The notes: a model not told the origin generated them from the letters alone. A DNA stretch of 64,000 bases from the human T2T-CHM13v2.0 reference genome, Homo sapiens (GCF_009914755.1 NC_060928.1), one strand, 5' to 3'. Counted from the first letter of the stretch, positions 3,724 through 46,523 are shown. Program-made: numbers and translations.

Positions 3724-3861
3724 CTCCTCAGCACTCCTGGTTCTCTTTCACTTCGAGGGCTTCCTACTGCCAGCACCTGCGACTCTGTCTGAGGGCATTC
3801 TCTGACTTGTAGCATGCTCTTACAATGCCCTTCAAGCCAAACCAGGTTGGTAACTTCCACC
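3724..3861 (-). pseudogene. Possible linker pseudo-exon (R)VEVTNLVWLEG...EPGVLR(R)
   Basis: tagcag acceptor, GAG|gtacca donor, 138 bp, phase 2-2, open frame; no domain motif. Confidence 0.4.
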
Positions 3862-4761
3862 CTGCTATCAAGAACTAACAGAAAACATGGGCGGGTTTCA
3901 TGGCTAAAGAGATAATCATGAGATCTGGAGGATGGTCCAGGAGGCATATGGGATGAAGATAGTTATATTCCGAAACTGCCATGGAAAAAAAAGTATCTTT
4001 AGGAAGAAGCAGCCCATCTTTCAGTGGCTTCAGCCCAAATCATCAGATGCCTGGGACTGCAACATGCCTTAAAGTACTCGAGGAATAAAATGGTCAATAC
4101 TGATCAGAATTTTAAATACTTAAGCCTTGAACTACCCTATAAAATCCATGAAAAGATTTTAGAAAAGAGTAAAAACTTGGGTTCCCTGATAGAGAAATAC
4201 AGATTGAGAGTATTTCAGAAGGCATTCTTGCTCTGCCTTTAACACAACCATTGGCAATAGGTGTGTATTGTACTGTCCAGGCAGAATCCTCTGGGAAGAA
4301 AGTAGAAAGATGTCTTGTAAATGGGAGTCCCTTGGGAGGCAAGTGAGGGGTAAAAGTCAGTGTGTGTGGGAGTGTTTAGTGCAATTGGGGACTAAACACC
4401 AGTCATCTCCAGGACTTGAATTTTGCCACTTAACTGCAATTTTCTTCCCAACTCTGCAAACACAGTTTACATGCCTCGTTTGTCACCTCAGTCACACATT
4501 ACCCTCCCATGTCCACTATTCAGGTTCCGAGACATTAACTAGTTTCAAATGCATTGCCATAGTTCATCGTTTAAAAATTCTACCTTTTTGTTAACAATGT
4601 TTTTTCAAAAATCCTTTGTCACTTATAAAATATTAATAAGTGAGATACCAGGCAATAAAGAGAAAATTTAAATAATCCTAGCACTTTGAGGGGTACATTC
4701 TCTGTACTAAAAGCAAGAATAAAAAATGTACGAAGAAATGAGAAAATGTGGAAAAGAAGTG

Positions 4762-4871
4762 CTAAGAATCCAACGTGGCATGAATCGGGGGTCTCTGACA
4801 TTTCCATCTTCATCAAGGGGATTCTGTCAAGTAGTAAGTCAAGCTCTTCATCAGTAATCTCCACACCAAAC
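4762..4871 (-). pseudogene. Pseudo-exon FGVEITDEELDLLLDRIP/LDEDGNVRDPRF
   Basis: Acceptor ctatttgtttcag; ITDEELD linker-helix and DEDGNV loop split by a 1-nt frameshift at the C run 4817-4820; donor lost. Confidence 0.85.
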
Positions 4872-4940
4872 CTGAAACAAATAGCAGTTAGCATCAGTCA
4901 CCTCCCAAGTTCACATTTGGGTCACCCATGCCCACAATAC

Positions 4941-5075
4941 CCTAAGCATATGGCTGCCATTAAAGCTTTGTGACTGCTGCAGTCCTCAAGATCAAGAGCA
5001 CCACGTGAATATCAGAGGTTAATCAGGGTTTTGATCGCTTCAGCTTTCTCAGAGAAAGATTCTACCACAGAATCC
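4941..5075 (-). pseudogene. Pseudo-exon DSVVESFSEKAEAIKTLINL*YSRGALDLEDCSSHKALMAAICL(G)
   Basis: Acceptor ccaatgcag, donor AGG|gtattg, 135 bp, phase 2-2; TGA at 5012-5014; 69-nt intron with gctaac branch point to next exon. Confidence 0.7.
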
Positions 5076-5910
5076 CTGCATTGGTGGAGCACAGAAATAG
5101 AAACACCGGCATGTTGAATTGTGTGTGATTGTCCTCTATAAAAAGTTATTCATTACACTAAAACACTGGTATTGCTTAAACAAGTTAACTCTGAAAAGCC
5201 TTTCAATTGGGCTGCTTAGCATGAAAGAAAAGGTAGAGAAAAAAATGCCTTTCGAAAAACAGCTTCCTAATACTCTTGCAAAGCATTTCATAATGGCTTT
5301 AAAGACATTTTGCATACAAATATTTTAAAAGTGGCAGTGTTTATTCATCAGCAAGAAAGTGTTTTCATCTCTCAAGAACAATCAAAACATAATCCGTGAA
5401 TCACTGGCATAAATAAGAATGACTTAAGCAATAATAATGAACAAGGCGTTCATTCATCATTTTGCAAAGCTGATAAAACCCAGCTGACTTTTGGAAAAGA
5501 GGGGAATATATTTTCTTTTGACAACACAATGACAGAATAACATCAAAAAGTCTCTTTATCCATTTTCATTATTACTTCCTTAATAATTATAAAAAGGAAA
5601 AATATTTATATGATCTTCAGAGAAACCAGAGTATACTTTCTTAGTAATTATAAAACAACATATACACACCATCAACAACAATGCAACAAACAAAAATGGC
5701 TTTTTTTCCTAAGCTGCAAATAATTAAGTTATCATGTATTTGTATTTCAGAAGTACTTGAATTTAAATAGCATCTCAGGGACTTTGCAGTTGGGTAACCT
5801 TTTTTTCATTTGTATAAAATTAGAAAAAAAGGGTAATTTAATGTTATACCTGCACAGTGTTTATCTTACTCCCTTTTATTCTCTTTATCATTTCTTCACA
5901 ATGAAGTTAC

Positions 5911-6000
5911 CTGGACTAATGGAGAAATCCTTGGTATTTAGCATCAGAAATGAAAATTAATTCTCAGGTTTGATTTGGATTTAAACTCTTAAACTCAGTA
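5911..6000 (-). pseudogene. Pseudo-exon (D)TEFKSLNPNQT*ELIFISDAKYQGFLH*S(R)
   Basis: Acceptor ttgtttccttttaaag, donor CAG|gtaact, 90 bp, phase 2-2; stops at 5964-5966 and 5916-5918. Confidence 0.6.
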
Positions 6001-6619
6001 CTTTAAAAGGAAACAAACATTCTGTATAGGCATATTGGGGGAAAAAAGATGAAAAGTCAAGAAATCCGAATCTAGTTTATATCCACCATTCTACAGCTAT
6101 GCAATCATGGAAAATCACTTAACTTTTACATTTCAGTTATAAAAGTGGTCTCAGTGGTCTGTGAGTGTTCTGTATCTTACTGAGTGGTTATGTGATAGTG
6201 AGATAATGATAACAAAAGTGCCTGGAAAAACATCACATAAATATTGTGTATTACTATTTTTGATGTCGAAAACAGGTTAAAAAAGGCCTCCCAAACATAA
6301 TAGAAAAGACTGTTCAAACCTAACAGTAACACAAGCCCTTTTTCTCAAGAGCCCGTCTTGGTGAGTGGCATATGGTTTAGTGGAGATAGCATGGCCTTCG
6401 GGTTAACTGGACCAACGTTTGAATCCCAGCTCTGTCATTTAGTAGCTGTGTGTGGCCTTGGGCAATTTCCTTAATTCCCTGAGCCTCAATTTTCATTTGT
6501 ATAACAAGAAAGGCTATTTTGAAAATCAATTAAGTAAATAAATATGCACATATTCTCTTTAATGTAAAATGTATTTTCTTAACAGTGAAACTACCTTCAC
6601 TGTATTGGATAAAATGAGG

Positions 6620-44387: not shown

Positions 44388-44891
44388 TGTTATCCTTGTA
44401 ATTAATAACTAATGTTCTTAGCTACTTTCCCCTTCCACTGAATCTCCCTCTTTCTTAATCAAGGCTTGGAGAGGTCTTTTTTAAAATTCTAGCCTCAATA
44501 TCGTTCTTTCATCTACTGAGCTATTCCATGGTATGAGATCCAGGAACCTGTTTTCAATAAAAAGAACAATGGATTGGCTAAAATGTGAAATATGTTTCAC
44601 TACAGATATATCTGTACTGTATATAGACTCCCATTGGCTTTTTCTTTTGCTAATAAAACATGTTCATTTTGATTGTTAGAATTTTATTATTTATCAGTGT
44701 GAAGGCAGAGGGGAAATAACCAATAAGTCACGCCTATAGCCGTGTCTGAGATAAAAGCCGTCTGTGAAAGACATTTAGCCCTATGAGTTCCAACAGAAGC
44801 TGCTGGACATTCAGAATCAGCCTGCAATTCCTTTTTTTGAAAAAGACATGCAGTGATTTACTCGTTAGGTCAAAAGCAGAAAGGTGTCTCC

Positions 44892-45066
44892 CTTGTTTGG
44901 GCTTCTCCGTTGAGGTTTATATGGATCTGCGAGGCTGCCATCAGTGTCCCCGCCTTCTGTTAAAAGGGTCAAACCCAGCAAGAATTCCGAGGGAACGGGT
45001 TCCTGTCCCCAAACTGCTGCATAGAACTCTTCAAACTTTATTGTGCTCTTGGCTTGGAGTTTCAGC
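44892..45066 (-). pseudogene. Pseudo-exon (R)LKLQAKSTIKFEEFYAAV..., second EF-hand of a pair
   Basis: Strong acceptor ttcttaatttcttatag, phase 2; I-x-F-x-E-F pattern; 3' end approximate (no canonical donor). Confidence 0.75.
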
Positions 45067-45199
45067 CTATAAGAAATTAAGAATATAGGGAAAAGGAAAA
45101 GGGATTTGCAAATAGAACAGAGTTGTATTCCAGGAAACACAGTAACCAGATCCCTTCCCAAAACGTTTACCCTTTTTAGCTCAGATATTAAGTTTGTTG

Positions 45200-45531
45200 T
45201 TGTTGTTTTGTTTTTGCTTTTTTTTTGTTGTTTTTTGAAACAGGGTCCCACTCTGTCACCCAGGCTGGAGTACAGTGGCATGATCTCGGCTCACAGCAAC
45301 CTTCACCTCCTGGGTTCAAGCGATTCTCCTACTTCAGCCTCTGGAGTAGCTGGAACTACGGCCCACACCAACACACCTGGCTAATTTTTGTATTTTTTTT
45401 TCTTTTTTTTTGGTGGAGACAGGGTTTCACCATGTTGGCCAGGCTGGTCTCAAACTCCTGACCTCAAGTGATCCACCAGCCTCAGCCTCCGAAAGTGCTG
45501 GGATTATAGGCATGAGCCACCGCACCCAGCC
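45200..45531 (-). mobile_element. AluS
   Basis: Full dimer; TSD agatattaagttt. Confidence 0.95.
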
Positions 45532-45697
45532 AGATATTAAGTTTTAAAGTTTAAAAATGTGGTTTCGAAATTTACAGTTTTCTTCAAGTTGATGTGGAAG
45601 AAAATAAGGAATAAGTTAAAAAATAATAATGAAGACAGTGACTTTGAAACTAGGGCTATCAGTCTAAAAGTAACTTCTTCATAAACATACTCTGTGT

Positions 45698-46149
45698 TGT
45701 GGAAATTGGTCATACAAGCTGAGTCATTCTTATCCACCCAACCAAAATAGAGTGGAGGGCTGGGGGGAAAGAGCACTCAGGACATGTGACATTGCTCTTG
45801 AAATAAAATTCTCTGCAAGTCTAGTGGCTGAAACTGCCTATTGTAGCCTGAGACCAGTTTTATCTGTCGCCTCAGCAGCTACAACTCTAGGACTAATTTT
45901 GGCCACCACAGTCGCCCACCAAATGGAGCTGGCCAGCCCCCAGAGCTTTGCTAAAACCAAAGAACTTTCTCCAGGACCACACAGAACATGCCCTTTTTTT
46001 TTTTCCATAAAATCCCCAACCTCCTTTACATTCTTCAGACATACCAAAAACCACTTAGTCTGCCTGTATGCCCTGAGTTGCAATTCTTTCTTCCCAAATA
46101 AAGCGTGAAATTTAGAGTTATCTCTAATTTTTTATTCTCACTTCCACAG
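45698..46149 (+). mobile_element. ERV1 solo LTR (MER34/MER39 group)
   Basis: TG...CA ends; ttgcaattc...cccaaataaa...aatttagag poly(A) region. Confidence 0.65.
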
Positions 46150-46445
46150 TGTGTATGTGGGTGTATGTAGGGGCGGGGAAAAGGGAAAAAGGAAGGGAGA
46201 GAGAGACAGAAACAGATCATAATCTTGCTTGCCTGTATGGCAGGGCTGGATTTTGTGTTGTTTCATGGTAGAAATCAGATTGTAGCAATGAAAAGAAAGA
46301 ACGACAGCAGGAAAGCATTCCTAATTCCTCAGATACCTGTCCTGCCAGCTGAACCCTTCTTCAGAGATCTCCCAGCTTCACAGCCCTGACTCAGCGGGGC
46401 GTAAATGGCTTGTAGCAGCCACGGGGCCCCATGGAGATGATTGGC

Positions 46446-46523
46446 CTGAGCAGGAGTTGGGGATGCTGCTTGGGACTGATCTATCTTCTCAGGAATTTAG
46501 ACAACACCGTGAAAAGCACATCT
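46446..46523 (-). pseudogene. Pseudo-exon (R)DVLFTVLSKFLRR*ISPKQHPQLLL(R)
   Basis: Acceptor ctctttaattcttgcag; 78 bp, phase 2-2; TAG at 46481-46483; donor degraded to gccaat; joins in frame to exon at 45066. Confidence 0.7.

What the first reader, a model, noticed from the sequence alone, without database searches (positions are those of the whole stretch)
3724..46523. Fossil multi-exon EFCAB6-like EF-hand gene on the minus strand (candidate unitary pseudogene)
Seen: at least four separate EF-hand-pair segments, all minus strand and in order: RDVLFTVLSKFL...LLL|RLKLQAKSTIKFEEFY (46.5/45.0 kb), VEKKDFLSVL...GISYLDFLRNF (38.7 kb), FDEKGKGQL...LRSLLF (14.8 kb) and ALDLED...|FGVEITDEELDLLLDRIP/LDEDGNV (5.0/4.8 kb). 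Knowledge: tandem degenerate EF pairs separated by linkers are the architecture of EFCAB6-type proteins. Inference: introns full of ancient MIR/L2 indicate an old gene that decayed in place rather than a retrocopy, and it may be intact in other vertebrates. The ORF track shows it only as fragments.
Basis: partly seen in the sequence, partly recalled or inferred. Interest (0 to 1): 0.85.

Follow-up and report, generated by a model that had tools for sequence, protein, structure and literature searches.

The report
Dead EFCAB6-like gene on human 4q35
Between HELT and SLC25A4 the human genome holds the decayed exons of an ancient multi-EF-hand gene that fish, amphibians, turtles and many invertebrates still have intact but that no listed mammal has.

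Summary
Three of its four segments (46.5/45.0 kb, 38.7 kb, 4.8 kb) are decayed exons of a vertebrate "EF-hand calcium-binding domain-containing protein 6-like" gene of about 900 aa. The 14.8 kb segment and the ALDLED piece at 5.0 kb have no support.

Thirteen exon relics lie on the minus strand, colinear with the painted-turtle protein from about aa 150 to 914. A tblastn with 53 family proteins gave 495 hits at E<=0.01, against 0 on the reversed sequence.

The relics carry at least 8 in-frame stops and 3 frameshifts. No other human locus matches, so this is a unitary pseudogene that decayed in place, with its introns. It is not a copy of EFCAB6 on chr22.

Intact relatives are listed from sharks to turtles and alligator, and from amphioxus, tunicates, molluscs and echinoderms. 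None of the 120 listed is a mammal, bird or squamate.

The lncRNA LOC105377588 reuses a cryptic acceptor inside relic exon 7. Two chr14 copies are an old processed copy of such a transcript.

My early tests (Pfam on fragments, a calmodulin-type matrix) were negative only because they lacked power.

The parts
46445..46606 (-). Relic exon E1. Turtle P0035 aa 175-201, possibly from about aa 150. One in-frame stop. No GT follows the last aligned codon.
   Evidence: 46525-46445, 67% identity; 42 of 53 queries hit 46603-46424; translation and flanks.
44988..45071 (-). Relic exon E2. Turtle aa 201-219/225. An AG acceptor precedes it (ttatag).
   Evidence: 74% identity. HMM positions 194-219, i-E 0.004; 36 of 53 queries..
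43390..43500 (-). Relic exon E3. Turtle aa 307-342.
   Evidence: 56% identity, E 3e-5; i-E 0.001; 26 of 53 queries.
42600..42775 (-). Relic exon E4. Turtle aa 351-384. In-frame stop(s) and one codon missing. A GTAAAT donor is kept just past the similarity.
   Evidence: 42721-42623, 56% identity; translation and downstream flank.
38634..38831 (-). Relic exon E5. Turtle aa 388-453. The frame is open and one codon is missing. The pyrimidine tract is kept but there is no AG in front. A GT donor follows.
   Evidence: relatives at E 2e-7. E 1e-31; 47 bits, i-E 3e-13; 50 of 53 queries..
23064..23204 (-). Relic exon E6. Turtle aa 452-489. One in-frame stop inside and one at the end. AG acceptor and GTATTT donor are kept.
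   Evidence: 63% identity, E 4e-7; i-E 5e-7; 44 of 53 queries..
4759..4888 (-). Relic exon E7. Turtle aa 507-545. It is an EF-hand with a 1-base loss that shifts the frame near 4820. The present donor reads CAC|TT. The next true exon (E8) lies outside the window at -22780..-22866.
   Evidence: 79% and 86% identity; 52 of 53 queries; best EF-hand matrix score in the window, 8.15 bits; 0 of 40 shuffles reached it; the chr14 copies have one more base at the shift.
4871..4871 (-). Cryptic acceptor inside E7. It is the 5' end of LOC105377588 exon 3701-4871 and also the 5' end of the chr14 processed copies.
   Evidence: Hub annotation; tttcag|G..
240..1417 (-). Non-coding terminal exon. It is joined directly to 4871-4759 in the chr14 copies. 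It is not part of the old coding sequence. It holds an old interspersed repeat at about 750-1208.
   Evidence: No family hit here.
14618..14938 (-). Not part of the gene; a chance resemblance.
   Evidence: No hit. Matrix scores of -36 and -39 bits.
4922..5011 (-). Unsupported; it probably lies in the intron upstream of E7.
   Evidence: No hit. Turtle aa 490-506 does not resemble it.

Best explanation
The locus is a unitary pseudogene: the remains, decayed in place, of the mammalian orthologue of a deeply conserved animal gene that databases call 'EFCAB6-like'. That gene encodes a protein of about 900 aa made of tandem EF-hand pairs and is a paralogue of EFCAB6.

Shown:
- Thirteen exon relics on the minus strand of chr4 (T2T about 188,372,826-188,464,606) follow the order of the turtle protein from about aa 150 to 914.
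- Introns of 0.3 to 27 kb separate them.
- Several relics keep splice signals.
- Stops and frameshifts break them, so no protein can be made.

Inferred:
- By homology to EFCAB6, the ancestral protein was an axonemal EF-hand protein of cilia or sperm tails.
- Constraint was lost roughly 0.14 substitutions per site ago on the human lineage. A cat carries a decayed relic too, so this probably happened before primates and carnivores split.

Today the DNA is transcribed only as lncRNAs. LOC105377588, on the same strand, starts one exon at a cryptic acceptor inside relic exon 7. An old transcript of that kind ran from this cryptic acceptor to the authentic exon-7 donor and then into a non-coding exon. 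It was copied back into distal chr14 and later duplicated there.
For: 1. Family. phmmer with the 38.7 kb ORF found short relatives at 53-60% identity. Their profile found 73 longer proteins. The top ones are EFCAB6-like proteins of coelacanth, lungfish, amphibians, turtles and alligator, at E 1e-31 to 1e-19.

2. Colinearity and controls.
- tblastn of 13 family proteins gave 88 hits at E<=1 in the window, against 4 on the reversed window, all of those at E>0.2.
- An HMM of 53 vertebrate members run on 116 kb gave 13 hits. All are on the minus strand, with profile positions running 194 to 871 as coordinates fall. The reversed sequence gave 0.
- tblastn with 53 queries gave 495 hits at E<=0.01, against 0 reversed.

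3. Disablement. At least 8 in-frame stops and 3 frameshifts lie in the turtle alignments.

4. Decay.
- Over 463 aligned codons the relic is 60.3% identical to turtle. Functional orthologues score 67-75% at the same sites.
- 28 of 102 columns invariant in the family are changed in human.

5. Unitary. The turtle protein searched against the whole human genome found only this chr4 locus plus generic EF-hand genes. The 38.7 kb ORF has no other human match at E<1.

6. Not EFCAB6. Xenopus EFCAB6 (P0056) gave 0 hits at E<=1. PF08976 finds chr22 but not this window at E<=10.

7. Distribution. 0 mammals, birds or squamates appear among the 120 listed of 222 hits. The cat protein P0005 is a short decayed relic.

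8. Function of relatives. The nearest solved chains are EFCAB6 from ciliary and sperm doublet microtubules, at E 2e-57. The passages I read in PMC8595878 call EFCAB6 an inner-junction microtubule inner protein.

9. Retrocopy. Window 4871-4757 and 1423-279 are contiguous on chr14 at 82-85% identity. The 3.3 kb between them on chr4 is single-copy apart from Alu.
Against: - Pfam found no EF-hand family in 8 reader fragments at E<=10, nor in three read-through frames of 34001-48999.
- Only one relic exon (E13) gave a weak EF-hand_8 hit, below the cut-off.
- tblastn with calmodulin-, centrin-, calcineurin-B- and myosin-light-chain-type queries gave nothing above the reversed control.
- Turtle aa 1-150 and 226-306 have no convincing relic. 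The N-terminal hit at 53607-53176 is low-complexity, E 0.04.
- E8 and E11 rest on weak statistics.
- The whole-genome search ran with a stricter first look, so weak matches elsewhere may be missing.
- Orthology by gene neighbourhood in turtle, frog or fish could not be checked.
- The orthologues are predicted proteins. I saw no evidence on their expression or function.
- 102 of the 222 hits were not listed.
Confidence: 0.93

Rival explanations
1. The EF-hand-like peptides are chance open frames in non-coding DNA.
For: - Pfam scans of the fragments were empty.
- The PDB search with the 38.7 kb ORF gave only noise.
- A calmodulin-type EF-hand matrix scored the 38.7, 14.8, 45.0 and 46.5 kb pieces at -30 to -67 bits.
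- For the 14.8 kb and ALDLED pieces, chance remains the best reading.
Against: - 495 hits against 0 in the reversed control.
- 13 colinear HMM hits on one strand against 0 reversed.
- E values down to 1e-26 per exon.
- Splice signals are kept at several relics.
Confidence: 0.01
2. It is a duplicated or processed pseudogene of human EFCAB6 (chr22) or of another living human gene, not a unitary loss.
For: - EFCAB6 is the nearest solved and named relative of the family.
- A processed partial copy does exist on chr14.
Against: - The relics are separated by introns across 92 kb.
- Xenopus EFCAB6 gives 0 hits at E<=1 in the window, while EFCAB6-like proteins give 55-86% identity per exon.
- No other human locus matches the turtle protein or the 38.7 kb ORF.
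- The chr14 copies are derived from this locus, not the source of it. They lack the intron and start at a cryptic acceptor.
Confidence: 0.02
3. The locus still encodes something: a shortened protein or a micropeptide from the open exon-5 frame (86 aa from its first ATG), or the relic exons are kept for an RNA-level role in the lncRNAs.
For: - Exon 5 is an open frame of 98 codons. The same 86-aa ORF sits in a public protein library as P0001.
- E7 is 79-86% identical to turtle, better than the other relics, and part of it is an exon of LOC105377588.
- The estimated decay (d about 0.14) is small if the loss dates to the stem of mammals.
Against: - Exon 5 has no AG acceptor and lies in no annotated exon (hub table).
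- Stops or frameshifts hit 7 of the 13 relics (E1, E4, E6, E7, E9, E10, E13).
- Differences between chr4 and chr14 in E7 fall evenly on codon positions, 3, 4 and 3 by my own count from the alignment. That gives no sign of selection.
- Conservation in other mammals could not be measured.
Confidence: 0.04

Closest known systems
Vertebrate and invertebrate 'EF-hand calcium-binding domain-containing protein 6-like' proteins, about 850-960 aa (for example Chrysemys picta bellii P0035, Latimeria P0008, Xenopus tropicalis P0049, Alligator sinensis P0060)
   Same: - 13 exons are colinear with the protein.
- 60% identity over 463 codons, up to 86% in single exons.
- Same order of EF-hand pairs.

   Different: - The human copy is broken by stops, frameshifts and lost splice sites.
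- The N-terminal 150 aa and aa 226-306 were not found.
- The named proteins are database predictions.
EFCAB6 (DJBP), about 1500 aa, a microtubule inner protein of ciliary and sperm doublet microtubules (PDB 7rro, 8i7o, 9fqr and others)
   Same: - Paralogous family of tandem EF-hand pairs that includes the EF-hand_11 domain.
- The turtle EFCAB6-like protein matches EFCAB6 chains at E 2e-57.
   Different: - EFCAB6 is a distinct, longer gene and is alive on human chr22.
- Xenopus EFCAB6 finds nothing in this window at E<=1.
Human unitary pseudogenes as a class (genes lost in place with no living copy; examples such as GULOP are recalled, not checked here)
   Same: - Intron-bearing relic at the ancestral place.
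- Disabling mutations.
- Intact orthologues in other vertebrates.
- No parent gene in the genome.
   Different: - This one is not in the RefSeq table given by the hub.
- None of my three literature searches on it found a paper.
Tetrahymena CFAP115 / Chlamydomonas FAP115 (EF-hand-pair microtubule inner proteins)
   Same: - Tandem EF-hand pairs.
- The turtle protein aligns with CFAP115 over aa 373-895 at E 1.5e-17.
   Different: True EFCAB6 matches CFAP115 at least as well, at 80 bits against 61-66. There is therefore no specific link to the dead gene.

Membership tests
EFCAB6-like (about 900 aa) family | Significant similarity along the protein, in the same order | tested here: met
   - 13 colinear HMM hits, 0 in the reversed control.
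- 495 hits at E<=0.01 against 0 reversed.
- per-exon identity of 44-86%.
EFCAB6-like (about 900 aa) family | Recognisable EF-hand domains (EF-hand_7 and EF-hand_11 in the turtle protein) | tested here: inconclusive
   - Human fragments: 0 EF-hand families at E<=10.
- PF08976 finds no match in the window at E<=10.
- E13 read through with X gives EF-hand_8 at E 0.0066, below the cut-off.
- E7 has the best EF-hand matrix score in the window.
EFCAB6-like (about 900 aa) family | An open reading frame that can give the protein | tested here: not met
   At least 8 in-frame stops and 3 frameshifts. It is therefore filed as a pseudogene of the family, not as a member gene.
Unitary pseudogene | No living or parent copy in the same genome | tested here: met
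   - the turtle protein against the whole genome finds only this locus and generic EF-hand genes. The search used a stricter first look.
- the 38.7 kb ORF is unique.
Unitary pseudogene | Decayed in place, with introns (not a retrocopy) | tested here: met
   - The relics are spread over about 92 kb.
- AG or GT signals are kept at E2, E4, E5, E6, E8, E9 and E11.
Unitary pseudogene | Intact orthologue in other species at the syntenic place | not testable with these tools
   Intact predicted proteins exist in many species. Their gene neighbourhoods could not be read.
EFCAB6 proper | Closest similarity is to EFCAB6 orthologues | tested here: not met
   - P0056 (Xenopus tropicalis EFCAB6) gave 0 hits at E<=1 in the window.
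- In one search the true EFCAB6 proteins rank below the EFCAB6-like ones, at 25-33% identity against 56-62%.

The most novel reading that the evidence does not exclude
An EF-hand gene kept at about 49% identity from molluscs to turtles, whose nearest solved relative EFCAB6 sits in the axoneme, was lost before the placental radiation. The lists also show no bird or squamate copy, so it was perhaps lost independently in those groups.

If so, amniote cilia and sperm tails repeatedly dispensed with a calcium-binding microtubule inner protein, possibly because EFCAB6 or other such proteins took over its site.

The relic's mild decay (d about 0.14), and its reuse by a lncRNA whose splice pattern is at least as old as the chr14 retrocopy (K2P 0.21), could also mean that part of the locus kept an RNA-level role.
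Probability: 0.3. Interest if true: 0.6.

Novelty: new member of a known kind. Interest (0 to 1): 0.5.

Why it matters
- It explains what two uncharacterised lncRNA genes on 4q35 are built on.
- It adds a well-mapped unitary pseudogene to the human list.
- It shows that mammals lack a gene that most other animals keep. The nearest solved relative of that gene is a calcium-binding protein inside ciliary and sperm-tail microtubules.
- This gives cilia biologists a concrete comparison. What does the protein do in frog, fish or sea-urchin axonemes, and what replaced it in mammals?
- It is also a caution for scans. Domain models and calmodulin-type searches missed a relic that one search against whole-proteome libraries found at once.

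Tried and rejected
1. Pfam on 8 fragments and on read-through frames gave no EF-hand hit. PDB phmmer with two fragments gave nothing. It was only lack of power.

2. I built a calmodulin-type EF-hand matrix from human loci. A frameshift-tolerant scan found only E7: 8.15 bits, 0 of 40 shuffles reached it, Gumbel P about 0.004.

3. I then read E7 as the C-terminal EF-hand of a small calmodulin-like or myosin-light-chain-like protein with a stop at the next junction. This is rejected. The turtle protein continues for 370 aa more, and the next true exon lies at -22.8 kb.
- The motif pattern found 4 human sites: chr18 twice, chr20 and chr15. From recall these are myosin regulatory light-chain genes and a pseudogene.
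- That is a resemblance only. Their intron lies at a different place.

4. tblastn with calmodulin-like, centrin-like, calcineurin-B-like and light-chain queries gave noise only.

5. A Tigger transposase origin for E7 was a recollection. It was dropped once the family match was found.

6. The idea that the 3.3 kb between 4757 and 1417 is a later insertion is rejected, because it is single-copy apart from Alu.

7. Whether the repeat upstream of the chr14 copy is part of the retrocopied RNA remains unresolved.
- It ends at what would be the repeat's own GT, and the rest of the repeat is not found downstream.
- No parent copy at over 80% identity exists in the genome.

8. CFAP115 as the specific counterpart is not supported.

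I dropped it, because with a true EFCAB6 protein answers the question.

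
Full report

The quoted peptides are all present on the minus strand at the stated places.

- Pfam found no EF-hand family in 8 fragments at E<=10.
- Pfam also found none in the three minus frames of 34001-48999 read through with X.
- PDB searches with the 38.7 kb ORF and the 4.8 kb second frame gave noise or nothing.
- The EFCAB6-specific Pfam family PF08976 found chr22 in the human genome but nothing in this window at E<=10.

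These results stand as reported, but they turned out to reflect low power on short, decayed, frame-broken pieces.

**The 4.8 kb piece and the chr14 copies**

A DNA search of the window's own genome showed that window 4871-4757 matches two places on distal chr14 at 81-85% identity. There it runs straight on into a match to window 1423-279 at 82%.

Both block starts coincide with annotated acceptors of the lncRNA LOC105377588 (4871 and 1417; hub table).

The 3.3 kb between the blocks on chr4 is single-copy except for two Alu pieces. The chr14 sequence is therefore a processed copy of a spliced chr4 transcript.
- Its K2P distance from chr4 is 0.214.
- The two chr14 copies differ from each other by 0.024.

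I built an EF-hand matrix from human calmodulin-type loci and scanned both strands with frameshift tolerance. The scan put its single best score in the window exactly here: 8.15 bits, next best -0.9. None of 40 dinucleotide shuffles reached it, the highest being 4.3, and the Gumbel P is about 0.004.

From this I first guessed a small calmodulin-like or myosin-light-chain-like gene. That guess was wrong.

**The turn**

phmmer of the 98-aa ORF at 38.7 kb against 1.84 billion representative proteins returned three short relatives at 53-60% identity, E 2e-7 to 2e-5. It also returned three repeat-rich spurious hits.

A profile of the ORF and these relatives, searched against longer proteins, returned 73 hits.
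- The top ones are proteins of 850-950 aa named 'EF-hand calcium-binding domain-containing protein 6-like'.
- They come from Latimeria, Protopterus, many frogs, salamanders and caecilians, turtles and Alligator. Similar proteins come from sharks, rays, Callorhinchus, bichir and bowfin.
- E values run from 1e-31 to 1e-19 at 56-62% identity.
- True long EFCAB6 proteins rank lower, at 25-33% identity.

**Mapping the gene**

tblastn of 13 family proteins against the window gave 88 hits at E<=1, almost all colinear on the minus strand. The reversed window gave 4 hits, all at E>0.2. Xenopus tropicalis EFCAB6 (P0056) gave none.

The turtle protein searched against the whole human genome found further exons left of the window, and no other locus except generic EF-hand genes. 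That search ran with a stricter first look.

I fetched the flanks and joined them in natural order into a 116 kb stretch. On that stretch:
- A profile HMM of 53 vertebrate members gave 13 hits at i-E<=1. All are on the minus strand, and profile positions run from 194 to 871 as coordinates fall from 45071 to -45099. The reversed stretch gave 0 hits.
- tblastn with 53 queries gave 495 hits at E<=0.01, against 0 reversed.

Together with the alignments and flanks, this gives 13 relic exons. E1-E7 lie in the window (46606 to 4759) and are listed under parts. Six more lie left of the window. Their places are in window coordinates; add 188,418,000 for T2T chr4.
- E8: -22780..-22866, turtle aa 543-570. 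12 of 53 queries hit it, best E 1.3, up to 56% identity. An AG acceptor precedes it.
- E9: -32973..-33159, aa 593-636. 55% and 73% identity in two frames, so one frameshift. GTAAGA donor kept. HMM i-E 1e-6.
- E10: -33512..-33793, aa 641-718. 62% identity over 78 aa, 91.5 bits, i-E 1e-26. In-frame stop(s).
- E11: -41443..-41541, aa 727-758. 44% identity, E 0.16. 19 of 53 queries hit it. An AG acceptor precedes it.
- E12: -43989..-44210, aa 776-839. 45% identity, i-E 7e-6. 43 of 53 queries hit it.
- E13: -44875..-45174, aa 832-914 of 916. One frameshift and four in-frame stops. E 2e-11. Read through with X it gives EF-hand_8 at E 0.0066, below the cut-off.

Turtle aa 1-150 and 226-306 have no convincing relic. 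A low-complexity match at 53607-53176 (E 0.04) may or may not be the first exon.

**State of the relics**

The turtle alignments hold at least 8 in-frame stops and 3 frameshifts, the latter in E7, E9 and E13. E4, E5 and E10 each lack one codon.

Splice signals:
- Kept: acceptors before E2, E6, E8 and E11, and donors after E4, E5, E6 and E9.
- Lost: E5 has its pyrimidine tract but no AG. E1 and E7 have no GT.

Two single-base losses in E7 of chr4 are visible by comparison with the chr14 copies. At the first one, near 4820, chr14 has one base more.

Over 463 aligned codons the relic is 60.3% identical to turtle. Caecilian, salamander, frog, coelacanth, lungfish, shark and bichir proteins are 67-75% identical to turtle at the same sites.

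Of 102 columns that are at least 98% invariant in the 53 proteins, human keeps 74. If those changes are neutral, that is about 0.13-0.15 substitutions per site since constraint was lost. This is a lower bound, because only relics that are still recognisable were counted.

It is a little more than half the chr4-chr14 distance (0.107). That fits a retrocopy made from an already aberrant transcript: cryptic acceptor at 4871 inside E7, authentic E7 donor, then a non-coding exon instead of E8.

**Who has the gene**

The turtle protein (aa 300-916) found 222 proteins at E<=1e-20, of which 120 were listed. The listed ones include:
- turtles, Alligator, caecilians, salamanders and frogs;
- lungfish, coelacanth, sturgeon, paddlefish, gar, bowfin and bichir;
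- sharks, rays and chimaera, and some teleosts;
- at about 49-50% identity, amphioxus, hemichordates, tunicates, molluscs, a brachiopod and echinoderms.

None of the 120 is a mammal, bird or squamate. The other 102 were not shown.

Among short proteins, one named hit is a 110-aa hypothetical protein of the Iriomote cat (P0005). Its exon-5 part has lost 10 of 26 well-conserved columns, against 7 of 26 in human, and 2 of the changes are the same residue in both. That gives modest support for decay that began before primates and carnivores split.

**What the gene was**

The turtle protein carries five EF-hand_7 stretches and four EF-hand_11 stretches.

Its nearest solved relatives are EFCAB6 chains from mouse and bovine ciliary and sperm doublet microtubules, at E 2e-57 to 6e-47. 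More distantly it matches Tetrahymena CFAP115 and RIB57 and Chlamydomonas RSP7.

In the passages I read of Gui et al. [quoted passage not shown] The same passages list FAP115 among the Chlamydomonas proteins without density in bovine doublets.

In the passages I read of the Tetrahymena preprint (10.1101/2022.09.30.510376), CFAP115 has four tandem EF-hand pairs, and its knockout is cited as lowering ciliary beat frequency.

A role inside the axoneme for the lost protein is therefore an inference from homology, not something shown. A special link to CFAP115 is not supported, because true EFCAB6 matches CFAP115 at least as well.

**Is it known**

The hub's RefSeq table lists only two lncRNA genes here. 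Full-text searches gave:
- no paper with LOC105377588 or LINC02436;
- one Ciona preprint that uses the term 'EFCAB6-like', seen only in the search listing;
- no paper holding EFCAB6, pseudogene and paralog together.

I could not check GENCODE or HGNC. Supplements were not consulted.

**Verdict**

This is a real unitary pseudogene that decayed in place. It is an ordinary kind of object, but a clean and apparently undescribed example, with some interest for cilia biology.

Noticed in passing
G000 chr14:100804361-100805600 and chr14:100723322-100724555 (L002, L003): Two copies, 97.6% alike, of a processed copy of a chr4 transcript (window 4871-4759 joined to 1417-240). An interspersed repeat precedes each copy and stops exactly where its own GT would lie. 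No parent copy of that repeat at over 80% identity exists in the genome.
   Followed up: partly
window about 750-1208, minus strand: An old interspersed repeat inside the lncRNA's last exon. The first look found 3584 candidates in the genome, and the scored ones are 68-82% identical. The chr14 copies share it, so it predates them.
   Followed up: no
window 4374-4422 and 6796-6844: A 49-base stretch at 94% identity is shared between lncRNA exon 3701-4871 and lncRNA exon 6706-6879. A 47-base inverted match at 92% also lies inside the intron, near window 1935-1981.
   Followed up: no
window 53176-53607, minus strand: A proline/arginine-rich stretch matches the low-complexity N-terminus of the turtle protein at E 0.04. 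It lies close to the RefSeq enhancer and silencer marks at 54.3-54.9 kb. It could be the old first exon or promoter region, or only a compositional match.
   Followed up: no
G000 chr4:187642948-187643340, minus strand (L046), about 775 kb before the window: An intronless open frame of 213 codons matches EF-hand_7 (31-32.5 bits) and, weakly, EF-hand_11 (24 bits). It is unrelated to the finding.
   Followed up: no
G000 chr15:40379036-40379416 (L040): An intronless copy of a myosin regulatory light-chain-like sequence with one in-frame stop. The family name is recalled.
   Followed up: partly
P0001 and P0142 (public protein libraries): The human exon-5 open frame is itself stored as an 86-aa 'protein'. 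A 97-aa relative at 87% identity is stored as well. Relic exons of dead genes are entering protein libraries as ORF calls.
   Followed up: no
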